DNA from: a virus | Lineage: Duplodnaviria > Heunggongvirae > Uroviricota > Caudoviricetes | Length of the DNA stretch: 35,359 nucleotides | Virus record (IMG/VR): IMGVR_UViG_2545824719_000022 | Location: 1 to 35,359 of that record | Reading direction: 5' to 3' (one strand) | In this document: one piece after another, positions 7,047 through 14,899 of the stretch | How the letters are laid out: every line of letters begins with the position of its first letter | Numbering within the stretch: position 1 is the stretch's first letter | Notes under the pieces: model-generated | Told to the model about the DNA's origin: nothing | The model's database searches: none | The model's input: the letters and a program-made list of their open reading frames with translations, nothing else | Position numbers and translations under genes: made by a program

Positions 7047-8237
7047 TTAATTGCTGTTAACCGAAGTGACCAGATTTGCCAGGTATTTATCGGTAATACG
7101 CTGGCGCAGGGTCAGGTTTTCAAGAGGAGGCACCGGTGTATAGTCGTAGTCGATATACAGTTTTCCGGCCTTGAGGGTTTCCGCATCGTTGGATTCTTCG
7201 CTGAACCAGCAGGTCGCATCCACGATATAGCCGTTTGTTTTCAGCTCACGGAATTTGGCATTGATGCCGTCAACGATGTCGCGAATCAGCGTTGCGGTGA
7301 TGGGCTTGTCCACCGCCCACATGTGCGCCTCAGCCATCGTGTCGGCCAGCACCTGCGCGGTGCGGGTATAGTTTTCAAAGAGGAACAGCGGGTCATCAGA
7401 GCAGGTACGGTTACCCCAGAAGCGGAAACCGTCGCGGCGAATCAGCGTAGTGACGCCTGACTCGTTAAGCAGGTCAGCATCGGTGCCGAACTCCTGCAAA
7501 TCCCAGAATACAGATGCGCTGATGCCGGTAACACCATTTACCCCGACGTTGGACAACGTTTTATGCCAGCCCTGCTCCTGGTCGATTTTAGCACGCAGCC
7601 CCAGCGCACGGGCGGTGGCATACGCGGTGGCGGTGGTGCTGCTGACCGTATCCCATGCGAGGAAATCCGGCCAGATGACCATCAGCTCACGCTGGCTGAA
7701 ATTCTGGCGGTAGGCTTTCACCTCGGAAATGGTTTTACAGCCCCATGCGCTGATATACCCGAAAGCGCGCAGCTTCTGACAGACTGATGCCAGTGCAACA
7801 GCCACCTCTTTGGTGTCCAGTCCCGGCACGCCGAGAATACGCGGTTTAACACCGGTTACTGACTCCGCCGCCAGCAGGGCTTTCAGTCCGGTGTACTGAC
7901 CGTTTTCGTCGGTGGTGCCGATGATATTGGAAACGGTCTGCGCAAGTTTCGTTTCTTCGTCGTCGCCGGTGCCGTCTTCCACGCGCACGACAACGGTGAC
8001 CGGTTTTGACTGGTCAGCGATGGCCTGCAACGATGCCGCCAGCGTGCCTTTTTTACCGGCCTTTGCAATTGCGCTCTGCACATTGGTAATCAGCACAGGT
8101 TTATTGAGGGGGAAGGTTTCCGCATCCGCATCGCTGGCCGTGCAGACCATGCCGACAATGGCAGTGGATACAGTGGAAATGACGCGGGTGCCGTCGTTAA
8201 TCTCCAGCACCTGCACGCCGTGATGATAGTCACTCAT
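7047..8237 (-). CDS. FI: Contractile tail sheath protein gpFI
   Basis: 396-aa ORF with ATG start; P2 FI-like; first gene of the FI-FII-E-T-U-D block. Confidence 0.9.
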   Translation of the reverse strand: MSDYHHGVQVLEINDGTRVISTVSTAIVGMVCTASDADAETFPLNKPVLITNVQSAIAKAGKKGTLAASLQAIADQSKPVTVVVRVEDGTGDDEETKLAQTVSNIIGTTDENGQYTGLKALLAAESVTGVKPRILGVPGLDTKEVAVALASVCQKLRAFGYISAWGCKTISEVKAYRQNFSQRELMVIWPDFLAWDTVSSTTATAYATARALGLRAKIDQEQGWHKTLSNVGVNGVTGISASVFWDLQEFGTDADLLNESGVTTLIRRDGFRFWGNRTCSDDPLFLFENYTRTAQVLADTMAEAHMWAVDKPITATLIRDIVDGINAKFRELKTNGYIVDATCWFSEESNDAETLKAGKLYIDYDYTPVPPLENLTLRQRITDKYLANLVTSVNSN

Positions 8238-8723
8238 CCGTTTAACTCCGTGGTTAATGGGTGCAACTATTTTCTGTTGGGCAGTGCATGAGACGCTATT
8301 TGACCTGGCTGGTCAGTGGATGAAACAACAGATAAAGAAAATGCGGGCAATTCCCCCCGCCAGTCCTGATTTGCACTCACTCATTCTCCAACTGGCTACT
8401 TACATAGCCCAAACGCTATCAAATCTGACAGTCTGCTTTGAGCGATCTGCGGACATTACTAACAGCATTCTGTATGAATAACGGGGGGTAGATCATTCCT
8501 GTCCTCACGACGACGCCTATCTATCATACAGTCGTTCTTTGGATCAAGACGCGTTCTGAAATGGTGTTTTTATGTATGTGCTGAATTCTGGGGCATAGAG
8601 TAAACCTTTCAAATTGCCAGAAACAGAAATGTGCGATTTAGTTGTCAAGTAATACCGGATAATTCAGCGATTCATCAAGAAATCATCGACCAGGCTGCTG
8701 TACATTCTCATCGGACGATTTTA

Positions 8724-9590
8724 CTATTCCTCAAGATCGCAGTTACTGCAATGACCTTCCATCCGGAATGCACCACATTCACAAGGCTCCATAGGAACAA
8801 AACCATCCATCTTGCTGTATTCACATTTATACCAGAGACAGACACCGACCCTTTGTTCCGGTAAATAAATTACGGATGGGACACTACATTCAGGACATTC
8901 CTGAAAATCCCAAGTTTGCAGATTATTCAGGCTGAAACCACAACAGATACAGTGAGTCCGTGCCGGAAAGCTTTCACTTTGGTAAAGGATAAAATGTGAA
9001 AAACTCTCACAAACGGGACAAAGTGCAAGGGTGTATTCCTGGTTAACAGTTATATCAAGGAATTGTTGCTCAAGAGCGATGATGTCTTGACGTAAATCAG
9101 AGTTCCATGAATTTTCGGTCTCATCTGACTGAATTATGACGAATGCGGGACGAAAAATTTGTTGGTACAGTTCACTCAGTTGCATTGCCAGTTCTTGCGG
9201 ACGAACCTCAAGGGCAAAATGCTGAAGGTTATTACGCAACTGACCCACCGTTTTCATCATTTGTAATGCAGATTCAGAAAATTCGGCTGGGTAATATGTC
9301 TTTAACAGCTTACAAAGCTGGTTGACGTTGACAGATTTACACTGGTGTAATTCTGACTCGGTTGGATGCGCCGGATCCACACATTTTTCTTGAAGCGATG
9401 CTGGATTAAAAATCGCTCCAGACCCATTGCGCGAAACTACGGCCTTCAACAATAGCTCAGCGGCCTGAAAGAGGTTAAGCAGGCACTGTTTGTAGTCACG
9501 TCGATCATGCCCTTCTAGCGCTTTGTTAAAGTAGTCCAGCCCGGTTTCCACTGAATCCAACGCATTTTCTAGTAAGTTAAAACGGACCAT
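8724..9590 (-). CDS. Cargo protein: HEPN-like N-terminal domain (Rx4H motif RNNLQH) plus C-terminal cysteine-rich multi-zinc-ribbon region; candidate defence/abortive-infection effector
   Basis: 288-aa ORF with ATG start in an AT-rich insert. N-terminal 130 aa are helical-looking, with R119-x4-H124. C-terminal 100 aa carry CPVC, HCICC, CPEC, CLWYKC, CEC and CSNC motifs. No P2 backbone counterpart. Confidence 0.55.
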   Translation of the reverse strand: MVRFNLLENALDSVETGLDYFNKALEGHDRRDYKQCLLNLFQAAELLLKAVVSRNGSGAIFNPASLQEKCVDPAHPTESELHQCKSVNVNQLCKLLKTYYPAEFSESALQMMKTVGQLRNNLQHFALEVRPQELAMQLSELYQQIFRPAFVIIQSDETENSWNSDLRQDIIALEQQFLDITVNQEYTLALCPVCESFSHFILYQSESFPARTHCICCGFSLNNLQTWDFQECPECSVPSVIYLPEQRVGVCLWYKCEYSKMDGFVPMEPCECGAFRMEGHCSNCDLEE

Positions 9591-9753
9591 ATTAAAGCCC
9601 CCCGAATAGGCATCGTCGTTATGCCAGCGCTTCCGCCAGTTACACAGATAGTGATTGTACCCACGAATATTGGGAACCTATTTTAGCATGTTTAACTTTA
9701 GTAGTACTGACACAACATTCATGGAGCGGACTGATTGACTTTTGGGGCGTGTA

Positions 9754-9782
9754 TTTACAAACTCACTACAATGCTGTATAAT
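9754..9782 (+). promoter_or_regulatory. Near-consensus sigma70 promoter TTTACA-N17-TATAAT reading + (opposite to flanking genes)
   Basis: TTTACA at 9754-9759, a 17-bp spacer, then perfect TATAAT at 9777-9782; lies about 140 bp upstream of the small ORF at 9921. Confidence 0.5.
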
Positions 9783-9920
9783 TCGTGAAGAGTGAATTTA
9801 GCTAGTGCATCCATAGGTTCGATTCCTATGCCTACAATTCTCATCACAGCTCTCCCAATAGTCGCATTTATCCGTTACCTCAACGTGTTACTTAACGATT
9901 ACGTCAGTAAGGAGAAGCCT

Positions 9921-10097
9921 ATGAGTAAATTATTCCGCCATGTAGTACTACTATATGTATCTTGTTTCATTGAAACTTTTTGGGCTGGGGTGATAAGTGT
10001 AGTAGCGGGTCTGATGACGGGCGGTGTCCAAATTATTTTGGCACTAGCTAAATCTTCTCAATTTTTGTTTTTTTATTCAAAGCACTTACCCCCATAA
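9921..10097 (+). CDS. Small hydrophobic protein (58 aa), probable membrane peptide
   Basis: ATG preceded by a strong SD AAGGAG with 6-nt spacing. Product MSKLFRHVVLLYVSCFIETFWAGVISVVAGLMTGGVQIILALAKSSQFLFFYSKHLPP is largely hydrophobic (1-2 predicted TM helices). The track's longer 101-aa version starts at GTG 9792, right at the predicted transcription start. Confidence 0.45.
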   Translation: MSKLFRHVVLLYVSCFIETFWAGVISVVAGLMTGGVQIILALAKSSQFLFFYSKHLPP

Positions 10098-10374
10098 ATA
10101 TTATTTAAATCAATAAACTAAGTCACTCTACGCATATTTTCCTTATCATGGTCTTTCGTGTTTTTTGTACTCAACATGATCGTTTCTCCTTTCTTTAATA
10201 CACAGTATGATTAGCTACGCCTTCTGTTGGAGCGAAGTGGACGAGTTAATTGAGCTGAATGTCAGCTATGAGCGAGGAACGGACTTCAAGAAAGTACCTA
10301 ACTGCGTATCGATTGCAAAATATGACAGTCTAACGGTGTTAAGGGCCATGAGTGCAGCCCTTAAGAAAAAAGTA

Positions 10375-11310
10375 TTAATAATATTTCCTGGCTTGCGCGC
10401 TCGTTTCGGTTAAGTTTATTTCATGGTAGTGATTATTTATAAAGTCACAAAAAGTACTAATTTTATCTTTGAGATTACTCATGCTATGCGTGATTTCGTC
10501 GTATAAATCGCTTTCCTCCTGATTTCGACAGTGGTCACCGGGATTTATAAAACTAAAAGTATCATTTGGTGCTGAATAATTATATGGAGCTTTTCTAAAC
10601 AAGATAATTAGATCACGCCAGGCCGTTGCAAAATCAATTGTAACATTCTTTAAAGCTGTATCATTCAGTTGAAAAACAGGTGAGTTTAAAATGTTCAAAA
10701 TATTATCGTATTCTTCAATAATTAATGAATGAATGTATTTTGCGCCCCACTGCAAATGTTCTATTGTTGAATGAAAATCAATAACATTCAACAATGTCGA
10801 CAAATTTGAGATATCTCTCTTGCGCAAAAATTCTTCCCTCGTCGGTTGGTGTCGTTCGAACATTTGCGGGTAGTACATTTTGAGTACAGCTGGGTCTTTG
10901 CTTAAATCAAAGCTAATATCCTCCCAGAAAACCACATCGACAGGAAACAGGCCTTTTAATTGTCTGGCATCATTGAGTGTTCTTACATAGCGCTGAATGC
11001 TAACATCCCTGGGCGCTGTCGTAGCGATGTAAAGAACCGTAATTTTTGGGCGAAATTTTTCAGCCTTGAGTAATTCATCATCGATTGTCGCCGTACTGAT
11101 TCCTGATACTGTATTTTTACACTGAATTCCAACGAAACGCCCAAGAGAGTAATCACCATATACATCAACTCCATCCTGCCGCTGCCCTGACCGTCCATGT
11201 CTGTTCAGATTAGGATTGGACCATCGCAGTTGGAATGAACTTTTGCACATATCCTCAAATTCGTCCCAAGATTTAGGGGGGGGTAACAACATTGAATTAT
11301 ATGTAACCAC
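10375..11310 (-). CDS. Cargo protein: Mrr-like PD-(D/E)xK restriction-endonuclease-fold N-terminal domain plus uncharacterised C-terminal domain; candidate defence nuclease
   Basis: 311-aa ORF with GTG start 7 nt after SD AAGGA (alternative ATG at 11292). N-terminus shows W..FE..C....F, then DGVDVYG, then GIQCK, then hydrophobic beta-strand-like segments (ITVLYIATT, VDVVFWEDIS): the typical Mrr catalytic-domain layout. AT-rich. Confidence 0.6.
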   Translation of the reverse strand: MVTYNSMLLPPPKSWDEFEDMCKSSFQLRWSNPNLNRHGRSGQRQDGVDVYGDYSLGRFVGIQCKNTVSGISTATIDDELLKAEKFRPKITVLYIATTAPRDVSIQRYVRTLNDARQLKGLFPVDVVFWEDISFDLSKDPAVLKMYYPQMFERHQPTREEFLRKRDISNLSTLLNVIDFHSTIEHLQWGAKYIHSLIIEEYDNILNILNSPVFQLNDTALKNVTIDFATAWRDLIILFRKAPYNYSAPNDTFSFINPGDHCRNQEESDLYDEITHSMSNLKDKISTFCDFINNHYHEINLTETSAQARKYY

Positions 11311-11785: not shown

Positions 11786-12313
11786 TTATTGCGGCATTTC
11801 CGGCCATTCAGGATTTGCAGGATCCACACGGCTGACCAGAACACTGTAGCGTTCCCATGCTTCCAGTCGGCTACGCTCCTCATCTGTTGCCATGTTCAGC
11901 CTGACAGCGCGCTCCAGTGGCAAAATCACGGATTCAGCATCTGCAAGAAGTCTGGCTTTCCGGTTTTCTGCCTGCTGCTGCAATTCCTCTGCCGTATAAA
12001 TGCGTTTAATCACTTTGCCGTCCTTAAACATCCAGTTCCCTGAAATGTCCGCCCGTCGGTTAGCAGTAATATCCGCCACTTCAACCACACTTAATCCATC
12101 TGGTCTGATAGCTGTCACATCCTTTTCCACATAGCGGATAATATTATCTTTGTCGTACGCTATTTTTATCGTGTCATCAGCAAAATACTTTTGTTCTTCG
12201 TACCAGTTCTTACCATCTTCTGAAAAAAACCAGACAACATCAAAGTCCTTTGTCAATTGATATTGTTCAACCGTTTTTGGATTACCCACCGTTATATTTA
12301 TCAAATGCTGCAT
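11786..12313 (-). CDS. G: Tail fibre assembly protein gpG
   Basis: 175-aa ORF with ATG start directly downstream of H; P2 G/Tfa-like sequence. Confidence 0.85.
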
Positions 12314-12316
12314 AAA

Positions 12317-14899
12317 TTATACCTGCGCCACGTTATACCATGTCCCGTTAATGTATTTCTGCACCGGTCTGTAATATATGCCACCAATGTTATCGGCAGA
12401 GTTTGAGCCGGTATCCTGAACAATAATGCCGGAATATACACACCCGGACGGTGCCTGATGTGTCCATGTCATGCCATTGTTCGCAGGTTTGTATGTGGCA
12501 GCACCACCAAGCCGGATATCCCGGACATAGCGTGAATCAAAGTTGCCATAGTTAGATGGTGATACCTGCCCGTTAACAGCAAAAGTGATGCTGTTATCTG
12601 TATTTCTCTGACTGTAAAAATGCCAGCCTGCATCATCACCTAATTCAGCCACCACCGGACGACTTGAGTTTCCCCACAAATTGAATGCGGCTTCCTTCGT
12701 GGATGTATTACTGCTGCTGACCGTGAATTTTTTCCCGCTACCGGCACGTACTTTGGTACTTGAGACAATATCACCAGTAACATTCAGGCCATGCCCCATT
12801 GATACAGCACCCGTGGCATCATTTATAATCAGCGGTCTTAAATTATTATAACTGCCTAATCTGTCACCTGATTTAGTCAACATAAAATAAGTGCTGCTGC
12901 CATCATTCCTGATAAAGAAACCATAATTGCCATAAGCAATGCGCAGACCATTAGCACTGAGTGATGTAATCTCACCTCTTGAACGGAGACCATAAGCGGA
13001 GCTGAGTGATAATTCTTCCTGAGCATCAGTATTACCAGTCGCCCAGCGAACTACCCCGCCCTGTACTGTTTCATGCCAGATAGTGTCTCCTTCTCCACCA
13101 CGAAACTTTCTGAGATATTTTTTGCCGCCTCTGGTGCCTGAACATAAGGCCGTAGACATATAGGCATTCTGGCTTCCGCCATCCTGATTAATCGTTCCGG
13201 TCATTGCGTCGCCCTGACGATTCCAGTCACGACGCCAGCCGGGGGAGTAGCCGTCCCCATGATTTATGTAAGTGAATTGCGCGCTGGTTGTACCGCCACC
13301 ACTTGATGTTGTCGGCGTGGTCACTCGAATAGTGATTGCAGATTTAGTTCCCATGACCTCGACGACACAACCAGCCAGGTGGATATCACCACATCCGGTA
13401 TCCGTAATGATTTTGTTATTTGCATATGACCAGGAGCCTTTGCACATCCAGTACGGATGATTAAATGCACCACGGGAATCCAGCCATTCAATAAACTGAG
13501 CGGTTGTCCAGTTTCCGGCTTCAGTGCTCAAAGCGCCGCTATAAGCACGACAGGCACCGATATTTTTCGTGAAGGTATCCTTTCCCGGAATATCCGCACC
13601 GTTCTGATCTTTCTGAAGACGTTTTTCAGCATTGTCATAGGCAGACTTCACCGCTTTTGATGTTGCAGCCAGCGTTTCAGAATCGCTGTTGGTGGCGCTA
13701 CTGAGCTGGACAAGACCTTTCCGCGCCGTGGTGGCGTCCTGTGCAGTGTATTTCCCGTTAGCAAGGTCATACGCTGTCTTAACCGCCTTTGGCGTTGCCG
13801 CAAGCGTTTCAGAATCGCTGTTGGTGGCGCTACTGAGCTGGACAAGACCTTTTCGCGCTGTGGTGGCATCCTGTGCAGTGTATTTCCCGTTAGCAAGGTC
13901 ATACGCTGTCTTAACCGCCTTTGGCGTTGCCGCAAGCGTTTCAGAATCGCTGTTGGTGGCGCTACTGAGCTGGACAAGACCTTTTCGCGCTGTGGTGGCA
14001 TCCTGTGCAGTGTATTTCCCGTTAGCAAGGTCATACGCTGTCTTAACCGCCTTTGGCGTTGCCGCAAGCGTTTCAGAATCGCTGTTGGTGACGCTACTGA
14101 GCTGGACAAGACCTTTTCGCGCGGTGGTGGCATCCTGTGCGGTATATTTCCCGTTAGCAAGGTCATATGCTGCCTTTACCGCTTTTGGTGTTGCGGCGAG
14201 CGTTTCAGACGTGCTGTTGGTGGCACTACTGAGCTGGACAAGGCCTTTTCGCGCTATGGTGGCGTCCTGTGCGGTATATTTCCCGTTAGCAAGGTCATAC
14301 GCGGCCTTTACCGCTTTCGGCGTTGCGGCCAGTGTTTCAGACGTGCTGTTGGTCGCACTGCTTAACTGAGTAAAACCTTTTGCGGTCAGCGAGGCGTCAG
14401 GGTGACGTCGTGACTGTTCATGTTCTGCAATTTTGTCATCAACGTAATCCTGCGTTGCCATCACCGTTGTGGTGTCAATGGTCAGCTCCACTGAGGCCAC
14501 ACTGCTGACGATGATGACCATGCGGCAGGTCTGCGAACGCCCTGAGCCTTCGGCAAGGGCTGGCTTATAACTTTCGGCCATGTTCGCCACGGCAATTAGC
14601 GTTCCCGCATCATCGTACAGGCCAAGTTCACGCATCCAGAAACCGCCCACCTCCGGCGGAATAACCAGCTCTGCGATAATATAATTACTGTTTCGTTTGT
14701 CCTGGCTGATTTTGTTCAGCGCATGTCGCCAGACTTCGTGGATAAGCCCGGTCTGTCCGGCATCCGGGACAGGCAATTTACCCCCGCCATCCCCGACGGC
14801 CATCGTGGTAATATTGACCTTCCGCCCTCCCGGTGCGGTTGCCGCTGCCAGCTTTGCTGCACCGGCAGTGGTGATAACGGTTCTGAATTTTGTGCTCAT
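12317..14899 (-). CDS. H: Tail fibre protein gpH (receptor-binding), with internal tandem repeats
   Basis: 860-aa ORF with ATG start; conserved P2 H-like N-terminus (MSTKFRTVITTAGAAKLAAATAPGG...), about 5.5 copies of a 44-aa repeat, and a distal receptor-binding-type region. Confidence 0.9.
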   Translation of the reverse strand: MSTKFRTVITTAGAAKLAAATAPGGRKVNITTMAVGDGGGKLPVPDAGQTGLIHEVWRHALNKISQDKRNSNYIIAELVIPPEVGGFWMRELGLYDDAGTLIAVANMAESYKPALAEGSGRSQTCRMVIIVSSVASVELTIDTTTVMATQDYVDDKIAEHEQSRRHPDASLTAKGFTQLSSATNSTSETLAATPKAVKAAYDLANGKYTAQDATIARKGLVQLSSATNSTSETLAATPKAVKAAYDLANGKYTAQDATTARKGLVQLSSVTNSDSETLAATPKAVKTAYDLANGKYTAQDATTARKGLVQLSSATNSDSETLAATPKAVKTAYDLANGKYTAQDATTARKGLVQLSSATNSDSETLAATPKAVKTAYDLANGKYTAQDATTARKGLVQLSSATNSDSETLAATSKAVKSAYDNAEKRLQKDQNGADIPGKDTFTKNIGACRAYSGALSTEAGNWTTAQFIEWLDSRGAFNHPYWMCKGSWSYANNKIITDTGCGDIHLAGCVVEVMGTKSAITIRVTTPTTSSGGGTTSAQFTYINHGDGYSPGWRRDWNRQGDAMTGTINQDGGSQNAYMSTALCSGTRGGKKYLRKFRGGEGDTIWHETVQGGVVRWATGNTDAQEELSLSSAYGLRSRGEITSLSANGLRIAYGNYGFFIRNDGSSTYFMLTKSGDRLGSYNNLRPLIINDATGAVSMGHGLNVTGDIVSSTKVRAGSGKKFTVSSSNTSTKEAAFNLWGNSSRPVVAELGDDAGWHFYSQRNTDNSITFAVNGQVSPSNYGNFDSRYVRDIRLGGAATYKPANNGMTWTHQAPSGCVYSGIIVQDTGSNSADNIGGIYYRPVQKYINGTWYNVAQV
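13620..14390. repeat. About 5.5 near-identical tandem copies of a 132-bp unit inside H (phage tail fibre repeat)
   Basis: Period measured directly: the GCGTTTCAG motif recurs at 13672, 13804 and 13936 (132 bp apart). Protein unit is GLVQLSSATNS(D/T)SETLAATPKAVK(A/T)AYDLANGKYTAQDATTARK. Boundaries approximate. Confidence 0.85.

What the first reader, a model, noticed from the sequence alone, without database searches (positions are those of the whole stretch)
9754..10097. Oppositely oriented small hydrophobic ORF with near-consensus promoter inside the cargo island
TTTACA-N17-TATAAT (9754-9782), then about 140 nt, then strong SD AAGGAG and a 58-aa largely hydrophobic ORF (9921-10097). It is the only plus-strand unit in a ~20-kb minus-strand block, divergent from the HEPN-like gene and convergent with the Mrr-like gene. 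It could be a small membrane toxin or effector, or a regulator or antitoxin-like partner. There is also a 19-codon minus-strand ORF with its own AAGGAG SD at 10118-10177 in the same gap.
Basis: seen in the sequence. Interest (0 to 1): 0.6.

Follow-up and report, generated by a model that had tools for sequence, protein, structure and literature searches.

The report
Folded mRNA for small membrane protein
The flagged promoter and small ORF are real, but the supposed 140-nt leader is coding, so the gene is a roughly 90-100-codon unannotated membrane protein whose mRNA is held closed by conserved long-range base-pairing, and it travels on its own beside changing anti-phage genes in mobile elements.

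Summary
The sequence features are there: the promoter TTTACA-N17-TATAAT (9754-9782), the AAGGAG/ATG at 9921, and the only plus-strand gene in a ~21.7-kb block of P2 late genes.

(1) The "leader" is coding in the ORF58 frame. pN/pS is 0.35 against 0.95 and 1.98 in the other frames, every indel is a multiple of 3, and distant homologues span both halves. The gene is 9792 (or 9828) to 10097, giving a protein with two or three membrane spans. ORF58 is its C-terminal part, possibly also made from the internal start.

(2) The mRNA carries four covariation-supported helices. One clamps the 5' end to a site about 250 nt downstream, and one buries the upstream start codon in a hairpin.

(3) The unit is autonomous. 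It occurs with and without the HEPN gene, next to Gabija, ApeA, AbiJ and other cargo, and in diverged copies at tRNA-Pro attachment-site ends.

(4) The 19-codon minus-strand ORF is not conserved.

Best reading (inferred, about 0.4): a toxin-like membrane effector whose translation is restrained by mRNA folding, resembling hok/aapA1 type I toxin mRNAs. No antisense RNA was found, and the protein is larger than any known type I toxin. The family has no annotation and no Pfam or Rfam match.

The parts
9754..9782 (+). Sigma-70-type promoter: -35 TTTACA at 9754-9759, 17-nt spacer, -10 TATAAT at 9777-9782. The predicted transcription start is about 9788-9790.
   Evidence: It matches 11 of 12 positions. 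A promoter-like site recurs at the same distance upstream of the M44 ATG (-10 hexamer end at -136 to -150) in most copies, including the diverged L039, L041, L042 and L050; the scan found none in L035-L037. Conservation rises sharply at 9790. The start site is inferred, not measured.
9792..10097 (+). Coding sequence of a small membrane protein. It is 101 codons from GTG 9792 or 89 codons from ATG 9828, and the start is unresolved. The conserved part ends at LALAK (10052), and the tail 10054-10097 is variable.
   Evidence: pN/pS is 0.35 and 0.41 in this frame and about 1 or more in the other frames, with codon periodicity. All indels are multiples of 3. Homologues at 34-53% identity span residues about 17-89. 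Hydropathy gives TM1 at about residues 10-34, a positively charged loop at 35-50 and a hydrophobic stretch at 51-86. The AF2 model has helices at 13-39 and 46-97 but low confidence.
9909..9923 (+). Internal Shine-Dalgarno AAGGAG (9909-9914) and in-frame ATG (9921-9923, M44).
   Evidence: The nucleotides are nearly invariant in all 21 copies. K40 and M44 are invariant and E41 nearly so at 35-50% protein identity. The predicted unpaired probability is moderate at 0.2-0.6. Use as a start site is inferred.
9790..9808 (+). H1 5' strand. The extreme 5' end of the predicted mRNA pairs with 10041-10059. The core is 9796-9808, ATTTAGCTAGTGC.
   Evidence: The core is a 13-nt perfect inverted repeat. All 10 third-codon positions in the arms are invariant against 21 of 68 elsewhere, p = 3.5e-5. 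Compensatory changes occur in diverged copies, and RNAalifold recovers the helix independently.
10041..10059 (+). H1 3' strand (core GCACTAGCTAAAT, 10041-10053). It overlaps the last conserved codons, A-L-A-K.
   Evidence: For H1 and H2 together, 91.7% of cells are paired against 29-42% when partners are slid. Ten pairs change on both sides against 3-4, and 0 of 500 shuffles reach the observed paired fraction or covariation score (22 of 500 for the count of doubly changed pairs). G.U to A.C cells are 32 to 9, which indicates a plus-strand RNA.
9812..9830 (+). H2 hairpin: CATAGG, loop TTCGATT, CCTATG. It has a T-loop-like heptaloop, and the upstream in-frame ATG (9828-9830) lies in its 3' strand.
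   Evidence: It covaries: CATGAG/CTCATG in the distant subfamily and xxTGGG/CCCxxx in group C. The start codon has an unpaired probability of about 0.01-0.02 in 6 of 10 copies. ARAGORN and Rfam do not call it a tRNA.
9832..9850 (+). H4 5' strand, a long-range helix with 9984-10002.
   Evidence: RNAalifold predicted it. 94.6% of cells are paired against 31-64% slid. Nine of 16 pairs change on both sides against 2-3, with 0 of 500 shuffles.
9984..10002 (+). H4 3' strand, within the codons for the W-A-G-V-I-S-V segment.
10028..10041 (+). H3 local hairpin: CCAAA, loop TTAT, TTTGG. It directly abuts the H1 3' strand.
   Evidence: It is CCAAG/CTTGG in L017 and L050 and CCGAG/CTCGG in five distant copies, so two positions covary.
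10098..10250 (.). Conserved non-coding block downstream of the ORF, found in window-family copies only. Its function is unknown. It contains the non-conserved 19-codon minus-strand ORF (10118-10177).
   Evidence: It is conserved at about 50-73% with indels that are not multiples of 3. There is no consensus fold on either strand. It is not detectably a tRNA-Pro remnant and is not predicted to act as an anti-SD.
8432..10286 (.). Extent of the 1.85-kb module (288-aa HEPN + zinc-ribbon gene 8724-9590 on the minus strand, plus the small unit) that moves together in E. coli.
   Evidence: It is 98.9% identical at a non-P2 locus next to paoABCD in 15 E. coli genomes that lack the 311-aa gene.

Best explanation
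Shown. The locus is a self-contained transcription unit. A strong promoter starts an mRNA at about 9789 that encodes a roughly 90-100-aa inner-membrane protein with two hydrophobic segments joined by a positively charged loop. The mRNA is also a conserved structured RNA. Its first ~20 nt pair with the last conserved codons about 250 nt downstream (H1). A second long-range helix (H4) zips the TM1-coding region to the TM2-coding region. A hairpin (H2) buries the upstream start codon. A small hairpin (H3) stacks next to H1.

Inferred mechanism. The transcript is made constitutively but folds into a compact, nuclease-resistant form. In that form translation of the full-length protein is blocked, and only the internal AAGGAG/ATG start (M44, the 58-aa C-terminal form) is partly accessible. 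Output of the full-length membrane protein would then depend on opening or processing of the fold. This is the logic of hok and aapA1 type I toxin mRNAs. The protein is proposed to be a membrane-active effector that benefits the mobile element carrying it, through addiction, abortive infection or exclusion. It is not a dedicated partner of the neighbouring HEPN gene.
For: Coding status of the long ORF. Membrane character. H1 and H2 covariation. H4. H3. RNA-level constraint on the arms (third positions 10 of 10 invariant, p = 3.5e-5). G.U to A.C cells 32 to 9, indicating a plus-strand RNA. Start codon occluded in H2, 5' end paired only when the 3' arm is present, and M44 start site moderately open. 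Promoter conserved in position. Autonomy and mobile or defence contexts (Gabija, ApeA, AbiJ, PDC-S31/S32/S64, ccdAB, resolvases, integrase, tRNA-Pro att ends). Pairing between 5' and 3' ends, occlusion of the start site and activation by 3' processing are described for type I toxin mRNAs (PMC8594479, PMC5416894).
Against: No antisense promoter is conserved across subfamilies, and no structured sRNA is evident in the 3' block. The full-length protein (89-101 aa) exceeds the 20-60 aa given for type I toxins (PMC8594479). H1 does not sequester the internal SD, whose accessibility does not change when the 3' arm is removed, so a strong promoter with a perfect SD could produce the short form constitutively. 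That is hard to reconcile with a potent toxin. There is one copy per genome and the unit is rare, in 28 of 5,426 E. coli genomes. Toxicity, the transcript ends and the start codons actually used have not been measured.
Confidence: 0.4

Rival explanations
1. It is an ordinary lysogenic-conversion or "moron" gene. In this view it encodes a harmless small inner-membrane protein, for example for superinfection exclusion or envelope modification, expressed from its own promoter in the lysogen. The mRNA helices would serve only to stabilise the message or tune its translation.
For: It has its own promoter and sits inside a prophage cargo site and at prophage or island ends, next to typical conversion genes such as an acyltransferase_3, Bro-N/antirepressor, and a colicin with its immunity gene. 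The internal start site is accessible. No antitoxin was found. The protein is under ordinary purifying selection.
Against: Four covariation-supported helices inside a coding region, two of them spanning 150-250 nt, are unusual for a plain moron. The changes that preserve base-pairing even alter the encoded amino acids (A to S/T in one arm matched by A to D/G in the other), so RNA structure is sometimes favoured over protein sequence. That points to tight post-transcriptional control.
Confidence: 0.3
2. The RNA itself is the main product, or a second product. In this view it is a tRNA-like or dual-function RNA. A closing helix, a hairpin with an exact T-loop (UUCRAUU closed by G-C) and a second hairpin next to the 3' strand together mimic tRNA topology. 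Such an RNA could act as a decoy, sensor or antidote for tRNA-directed nucleases such as the HEPN proteins often found beside it.
For: The T-loop sequence and its G-C closing pair are kept in 19 of 21 copies, although synonymous codons were available. HEPN-type neighbours (HEPN-ZnR, ApeA, two AbiJ types) occur in about 4 of 8 distinct contexts. Diverged copies lie directly beside tRNA-Pro 3' fragments.
Against: ARAGORN and Rfam find no tRNA-like gene. The region is clearly protein-coding. Many copies have no HEPN neighbour, such as those next to Gabija, a kinase with DUF6037, prophage ends, and Buttiauxella. On a rough estimate, assuming about 20% of contexts would carry a HEPN gene by chance, the enrichment is not significant (p about 0.06). 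The adjacent tRNA-Pro fragments look like ordinary att sites.
Confidence: 0.12
3. This is the first reader's model: a 58-aa hydrophobic peptide translated from a 140-nt 5' UTR, acting as a toxin, antitoxin or regulatory partner of the divergent HEPN-like gene.
For: The SD and ATG at 9921 are perfect and nearly invariant. PGAP calls the 57-60-aa ORF. The HEPN gene and the unit move together as one 1.85-kb module in E. coli, Serratia, Phytobacter and Mixta.
Against: The "UTR" is coding in the same frame. The unit occurs without the HEPN gene, and the HEPN gene occurs without the unit.
Confidence: 0.08
4. The inverted repeats are DNA sites, for example recombinase or integrase arm sites or an operator, and not RNA helices.
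For: Diverged copies lie next to att sites, and resolvase genes flank L021 and L024. Paired sites bound by one protein would also change in parallel.
Against: G.U cells outnumber A.C cells 32 to 9, an asymmetry that DNA sites would not show. Four separate helices covary, including irregular ones with internal loops. The arms stay invariant in contexts that have no recombinase, such as the P2 cargo site.
Confidence: 0.05

Closest known systems
hok/sok-type type I toxin mRNAs (hok of plasmid R1; Hok/Gef family)
   Same: Both are autonomous small genes on mobile elements that encode a hydrophobic membrane protein. In both, the mRNA 5' end pairs with a distant 3' segment, and covariation supports the fold. 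In both, an upstream reading frame precedes the strong internal start, as with mok and hok. What I say about hok comes from established knowledge and from PMC5416894 and PMC8594479.
   Different: There is no sequence or Pfam relationship. The protein is 89-101 aa, or 58 aa from the internal start, against about 50 aa for Hok. The upstream frame is in frame, not overlapping out of frame. The 3' arm lies inside the ORF, not at the 3' end of the mRNA. No Sok-like antisense promoter is conserved.
aapA1/IsoA1 of Helicobacter pylori (type I toxin-antitoxin)
   Same: The full-length mRNA is locked by a long-distance interaction between its 5' and 3' ends, which makes it stable and poorly translated (PMC5416894).
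   Different: In aapA1 the interaction sequesters the SD and is released by 3' trimming. Here the long-range helix does not cover the internal SD, and the occluded element is the upstream start codon in a local hairpin. The toxin there is 30 aa and has a defined antisense RNA.
Dual-start holin/antiholin genes of phages (e.g. lambda S105/S107)
   Same: One small membrane-protein gene in a prophage has two in-frame starts, and RNA structure could set the ratio between them. This comparison rests on my own knowledge.
   Different: The two forms here would differ by a whole transmembrane segment (43 or 31 residues), not by 2 residues. There is no charged C-terminal tail and no adjacent endolysin. 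The P2 lysis genes lie elsewhere in the window (about 18-20 kb).
P2 Z/fun-site cargo ("hotspot") genes described by Rousset et al. 2022 (PMC9122126)
   Same: The genomic position is the same, between tail-fibre assembly gene G and sheath gene FI of a P2-like prophage, and the unit is flanked by candidate defence genes.
   Different: Neither that paper nor the 2026 follow-up (10.64898/2026.02.27.708500) mentions this small gene or its RNA. The unit is not specific to P2.

Membership tests
Type I toxin-antitoxin system | Small toxic protein of 20-60 aa (PMC8594479) | tested here: inconclusive
   The long form is 89-101 aa, outside the range. The form from the internal start is 58 aa, inside the range. 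Which form is made is unknown.
Type I toxin-antitoxin system | Hydrophobic, membrane-targeted product | tested here: met
   Hydropathy and the predicted helices at 13-39 and 46-97 (low confidence).
Type I toxin-antitoxin system | Cognate antisense RNA antitoxin of 60-200 nt | tested here: not met
   No minus-strand promoter-like site is conserved across subfamilies. The 3' block has no consensus structure. Only sequence was examined, so an antisense RNA with a weak promoter or one encoded elsewhere is not excluded.
Type I toxin-antitoxin system | Toxin mRNA fold that restrains translation, with 5'-3' long-distance pairing in some families | tested here: met
   H1 and H4 are supported by covariation. 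The upstream start codon is buried in H2. The internal SD, however, is not sequestered by the long-range helix.
Type I toxin-antitoxin system | Toxicity on expression | not testable with these tools
   This needs inducible expression.
Type I toxin-antitoxin system | Homology to a known toxin family (Hok, Ldr, TisB, Ibs, ShoB, Fst and others) | tested here: not met
   Pfam, NCBIfam, PADLOC and PHROGs give no significant hit. All 32 relatives are labelled hypothetical.
tRNA / tmRNA / tRNA-like gene | Cloverleaf or tmRNA fold recognised by ARAGORN or the Rfam tRNA/tmRNA models | tested here: not met
   There are no calls in the window or in 22 related loci at the unit. Only the H2 loop resembles a T-loop.
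Phage holin (dual-start) | Membrane protein with a charged C-terminal tail, next to an endolysin gene | tested here: not met
   The tail is variable and weakly charged. The neighbours are defence-type genes, not lysis genes.
Partner of the HEPN + zinc-ribbon gene (two-gene system) | Consistent co-occurrence of the two genes across homologues | tested here: not met
   They occur together only in the close lineage. They are uncoupled elsewhere.

The most novel reading that the evidence does not exclude
The unit could be a new kind of self-locking toxin switch that needs no antisense RNA. A constitutively made mRNA would be held shut by tRNA-like architecture (a closing helix, a true T-loop hairpin and a flanking hairpin). 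It would be opened, and the full-length membrane effector produced, only when infection perturbs RNA processing or tRNA-handling enzymes. The in-frame short form would act as a built-in modulator. That would make it an abortive-infection or addiction device gated by an RNA fold, one that rides along with interchangeable defence cargo.
Probability: 0.12. Interest if true: 0.85.

Novelty: new variant of a known kind. Interest (0 to 1): 0.62.

Why it matters
If the inferred mechanism holds, this is an undescribed family of structured toxin-type mRNAs in Enterobacterales and Shewanella. It has no Pfam, Rfam or PADLOC entry, and gene callers usually annotate it too short. It sits beside many different anti-phage systems, including the much-studied cargo site of P2 prophages.

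Three consequences would follow. First, it would add a case in which RNA base-pairing and protein coding are selected on the same nucleotides, sometimes at the expense of the amino-acid sequence. [quoted passage not shown] Third, it provides a marker gene for tracing how defence cargo moves between islands integrated at tRNA-Pro and phage cargo sites.

Even if the protein turns out to be harmless, the corrected gene model and the RNA structure are useful for annotation.

Tried and rejected
1. tRNA or tRNA fragment at 9812-9830. ARAGORN and Rfam were negative. The T-loop look-alike lies in coding sequence, although its loop is conserved more strictly than coding alone requires.

2. Single-sequence folding of the "leader". 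It was no better than shuffles, with z = 0.3 and -0.02. The structure became visible only with the full transcript and with comparative data.

3. The 19-codon minus-strand ORF. It is not conserved.

4. The window's 3' block (10098-10250) as a decayed tRNA-Pro fragment. Local alignment scores equal those of shuffles, so this was rejected.

5. The UCUCC motif at 10184-10194 as a long-range anti-SD for the M44 start. The pairing probability is about 0 in 10 of 11 copies, so this was rejected.

6. A conserved antisense promoter. TTGAGA-18-AATAAT inside the ORF (10061-10032) occurs only in the window's close relatives and not in other subfamilies.

7. A consensus structure in the 3' block. None was found on the plus strand and only a marginal one on the minus strand.

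8. Obligate linkage to the HEPN gene. This was rejected.

9. Structure-based function. The AF2 model is too poor (pLDDT 63) for a fold search, so none was run.

10. Literature on the P2 cargo site. It makes no mention of this gene.

11. Resemblance of the 3' arm (TTGGCAC-TAGC) to what I recall as the 5' end of tRNA-Pro (CGGCACGTAGC). I noted this from memory but it is too short to test, so I make no claim about it.
Full report
**Setting.** The window is a P2-like prophage of E. coli, found in ETEC strains. The finding lies in the variable cargo site between tail-fibre assembly gene G (11786-12313, minus strand) and sheath gene FI (7047-8237, minus strand). The cargo consists of three parts:
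- a 288-aa minus-strand gene at 8724-9590, with an N-terminal HEPN domain and C-terminal zinc ribbons. The motif R119-N-x-x-Q-H-F and twelve cysteines are invariant, and it matches PADLOC PDC-S64 at 4e-21;
- the plus-strand unit under study;
- a 311-aa minus-strand gene at 10375-11310 with no family match apart from PHROG 8991.

The minus-strand block of P2 late genes runs from about 1935 to 23658, and the unit is its only real plus-strand gene.

**Checking the observation.** The promoter TTTACA-N17-TATAAT at 9754-9782 matches 11 of 12 positions and is the best site in the region. Promoter-like sites as a class are no more frequent here than in shuffled sequence. This one, however, recurs at the same distance in most homologous copies, including diverged subfamilies. 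Sequence conservation also jumps from 0.52 to 0.91 at 9790, which is where transcription should begin. AAGGAG (9909-9914), the ATG at 9921 and the 58-codon ORF ending at 10097 are all present, and PGAP annotates them.

**The "leader" is coding.** I collected 14 and later 21 distinct copies from Serratia, Phytobacter, Dickeya, Hafnia, Buttiauxella, Mixta, metagenomes and viral contigs.
- In the ORF58 frame, pN/pS is 0.35 over 9810-9905, against 0.95 and 1.98 in the other frames. Over 9942-10037 it is 0.41, against 1.03 and 1.09. Diversity follows the order codon position 3 > 1 > 2.
- No copy has a stop codon between 9792 and 9920.
- Every indel in the coding region is a multiple of three: 9, 12, 6, 3, 3 and 12 nt.
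- An exhaustive phmmer search of 1.84 billion representative proteins found homologues of 75-115 aa at 39-53% identity. They align over residues about 17-89, so they cover both halves.

The gene is therefore the long ORF. The conserved part runs from 9792 or 9828 to LALAK at 10052. The tail at 10054-10097 shows no periodicity and varies in length.

The start codon is unresolved. GTG 9792 is present in most copies but not all. Every copy has an ATG or GTG at codon 8 or codon 13, and in the window that is ATG 9828-9830. In one diverged subfamily (L035-L038) the first in-frame start lies downstream of the 5' arm, so there the arm is untranslated.

**The protein.** Hydropathy gives a first hydrophobic segment at about residues 10-34 and a positively charged loop at 35-50. 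A long hydrophobic segment at 51-86 is broken by T-G-G. A low-confidence AlphaFold model (pLDDT 63) shows helices at 13-39 and 46-97. R28, K40, M44, E61, T62, W64 and A65 are invariant. The protein matches nothing in Pfam, NCBIfam, PADLOC or PHROGs. A profile search of 5.8 billion proteins returned 32 clusters, every named one labelled "hypothetical protein" and none with a Pfam domain, from Enterobacterales and Shewanella.

**The mRNA is a conserved structured RNA.**
- The only perfect long inverted repeat in the island joins 9796-9808 to 10041-10053.
- Both arms are identical in the 14 closest copies. All 10 third-codon positions inside them are invariant, against 21 of 68 elsewhere (Fisher p = 3.5e-5).
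- In diverged copies the pairing persists with different sequences:

| Copy | 5' arm | 3' arm | Note |
|---|---|---|---|
| Window | ATTTAGCTAGTGC | GCACTAGCTAAAT | 13 bp, perfect |
| L037 | TTAAGAGTATTTAGCCAGTA | TACTGGCTAAGTACTCTTAA | 20 bp with one G.U |
| L039 | GTTTATCCAGTA | TACTGGATAAAC | 12 bp |
| L041 | TGTGCTTAACCAGTA | TACTGGGTAAGCACA | 15 bp with one mismatch |

- These changes alter the encoded amino acids in both arms (A to S/T in one, A to D/G in the other) while keeping the base pairs.

Formal counts on the 21-sequence alignment A5:

| Helices | Cells paired | With partners slid 1-3 columns | Pairs changed on both sides (slid) | Shuffles reaching the observed paired fraction and score |
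|---|---|---|---|---|
| H1 (9790-9808 with 10041-10059) and H2 (9812-9817 with 9825-9830) | 91.7% | 29-42% | 10 (3-4) | 0 of 500 |
| H4 (9832-9850 with 9984-10002) | 94.6% | 31-64% | 9 of 16 (2-3) | 0 of 500 |

For H1 and H2, 22 of 500 shuffles reached the observed count of doubly changed pairs. For H4 none did.

RNAalifold recovered H1 without guidance and added H4. A local hairpin, H3 (10028-10032 with 10037-10041), lies directly next to the H1 3' strand and covaries at two positions. G.U cells outnumber A.C cells 32 to 9. That asymmetry fits a plus-strand RNA and does not fit DNA protein-binding sites.

H2 has the loop UUCRAUU closed by a G-C pair in 19 of 21 copies, which is the T-loop look-alike I noticed at the outset. 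Neither ARAGORN nor Rfam calls it a tRNA.

**What the fold is predicted to do.** Partition-function folding of ten diverse copies gave consistent results.
- The start codon inside H2 is almost always paired. Its unpaired probability is about 0.01-0.02 in six copies, whether or not the 3' arm is present.
- The internal SD and AUG (M44) are moderately open (0.2-0.6) and are unaffected by the 3' arm.
- In the diverged copies the 5' terminus is paired only when the 3' arm is present.

H1 therefore looks like a clamp on the 5' end, and with H4 it compacts the message. H2 restrains the upstream start. The internal start, with its near-invariant AAGGAG-N6-ATG, is probably used (K40 and M44 are invariant, and E41 nearly so, at 35-50% identity). 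The gene may thus yield two in-frame products: one of about 89-101 aa with both hydrophobic segments, and one of 58 aa that lacks the first. Each of these steps is inferred.

**Autonomy and context.** In E. coli the unit occurs in 28 of 5,426 complete genomes, once per genome and always next to the HEPN + zinc-ribbon gene. Thirteen of these are in the P2 cargo site and fifteen are next to paoABCD, where the shared module is 8432-10286.

Elsewhere the unit occurs without that gene, beside:
- DUF6037, a protein kinase and ccdAB on a conjugative-element-like contig (L018);
- an integrase and ApeA (L020);
- AbiJ, an AAA ATPase and an HNH nuclease, with a resolvase (L021);
- Gabija GajA and a resolvase (L024);
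- another AbiJ-type protein (L033);
- unrelated genes in Buttiauxella (L015).

HEPN + zinc-ribbon homologues at 52-68% identity lack the unit.

In the group C copies (L015, L017, L023, L050, L051) and in most of the distant copies, a sequence follows the ORF within tens of bases that matches the 3' part of tRNA-Pro. It covers the anticodon arm to CCA and is followed by an intrinsic terminator. It matches the annotated tRNA-Pro gene in all 5,426 E. coli genomes. In L039 the equivalent sequence is a tmRNA-like 3' end. No intact tRNA is present at these sites. These are att-site ends of integrated elements. The adjacent genes include SRAP, Bro-N/antirepressor, an acyltransferase, a colicin with its immunity gene, and PDC-S31. 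The unit is therefore a recurring edge gene next to variable cargo, much of it anti-phage, and it was probably carried into the P2 site together with its neighbour.

**Interpretation.** The combination resembles hok and aapA1 type I toxin mRNAs most closely. The shared elements are an autonomous small membrane-protein gene on mobile elements, a strong promoter, a message whose 5' end is clamped to a distant 3' segment, an occluded start codon, and an upstream frame ahead of a strong internal start. In those systems, long-distance pairing between 5' and 3' ends makes a stable, poorly translated message that processing activates (PMC5416894, PMC8594479).

Membership in that class is not established, for four reasons. 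No antisense promoter is conserved. The full-length product is larger than the stated 20-60 aa. The long-range helix does not cover the internal SD. There is no homology to any known toxin family. I give the toxin-like, fold-gated effector model a probability of about 0.4. A harmless conversion or exclusion membrane protein with a stabilising mRNA fold gets about 0.3, and an RNA-level (tRNA-mimic or dual-function) role about 0.12.

**Dead ends.**
- The 19-codon minus-strand ORF is not conserved.
- The conserved 3' block (10098-10250) is non-coding and has no consensus fold. It is not detectably a tRNA-Pro remnant and is not predicted to act as an anti-SD. Its role is unexplained.

**Verdict.** The unit is an unannotated gene-plus-RNA family, which I class as a new variant of a known kind. 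It is interesting mainly for the clear overlap of coding and RNA-structural selection and for its recurrent position beside interchangeable defence cargo.

Noticed in passing
window 8724-9590 (minus strand): The 288-aa neighbour is a HEPN protein with an invariant R-N-x-x-Q-H-F motif, fused to a C-terminal region with 12 invariant cysteines (several zinc ribbons). It matches the PADLOC candidate PDC-S64 only over its N-terminal half (4e-21) and matches PHROG 20819. It looks like an uncharacterised single-gene defence candidate.
   Followed up: partly
window 10375-11310 (minus strand): The 311-aa "Mrr-like" gene has no Pfam, NCBIfam or PADLOC match and only matches PHROG 8991 (unknown function). 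By eye, the segment DGVDVYG...GIQCK looks like a PD-(D/E)xK nuclease motif. In E. coli it is a separate module from the HEPN gene and small unit, and it is absent from the paoABCD-linked copies.
   Followed up: partly
window 8432-10286, compared with L003 5001-6854: The P2 cargo is a mosaic. A 1.85-kb block (HEPN gene plus small unit) is 98.9% identical to a block next to paoABCD in 15 other E. coli genomes. There it is followed by an S1 peptidase gene, a DUF4236 gene and a DUF2971 gene.
   Followed up: partly
L035-L037, L042, L050, L051 (just downstream of the unit); L039 3390-3440: Most of the diverged copies, and the group C copies, are followed by the 3' part of tRNA-Pro (in L039 by a tmRNA-like 3' end) and an intrinsic terminator. 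This is the signature of an att site, so the unit's ancestral home appears to be the distal end of elements integrated at tRNA-Pro.
   Followed up: yes
L039 2624-2711: Two type I-F CRISPR repeats (Rfam CRISPR-DR4, 47-50 bits) lie about 250 nt upstream of the unit in this metagenomic contig.
   Followed up: no
window 12317-14899 (minus strand): The 860-aa tail-fibre protein contains six tandem copies of a unit of about 37 aa (…ARKGLVQLSSATNS[TD]SETLAATPKAVK[AT]AYDLANGKYTAQDAT…).
   Followed up: no
L020, L021, L033 and the window: Four different HEPN-type proteins (HEPN + zinc ribbon, ApeA, AbiJ_NTD3 type, AbiJ_NTD4 type) lie near the unit in about 4 of 8 distinct contexts. On a rough estimate that assumes about 20% by chance, this is not significant (p about 0.06), but it deserves a proper census.
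   Followed up: partly
window 10038-10052, compared with the 5' end of tRNA-Pro: The 3' arm region TTGGCAC-TAGC resembles what I recall as the tRNA-Pro 5' end, CGGCACGTAGC. In L050 the spacing from this motif to the tRNA-Pro anticodon-arm fragment is tRNA-like. The match is too short to test, but it may hint at how the 3' arm arose.
   Followed up: no
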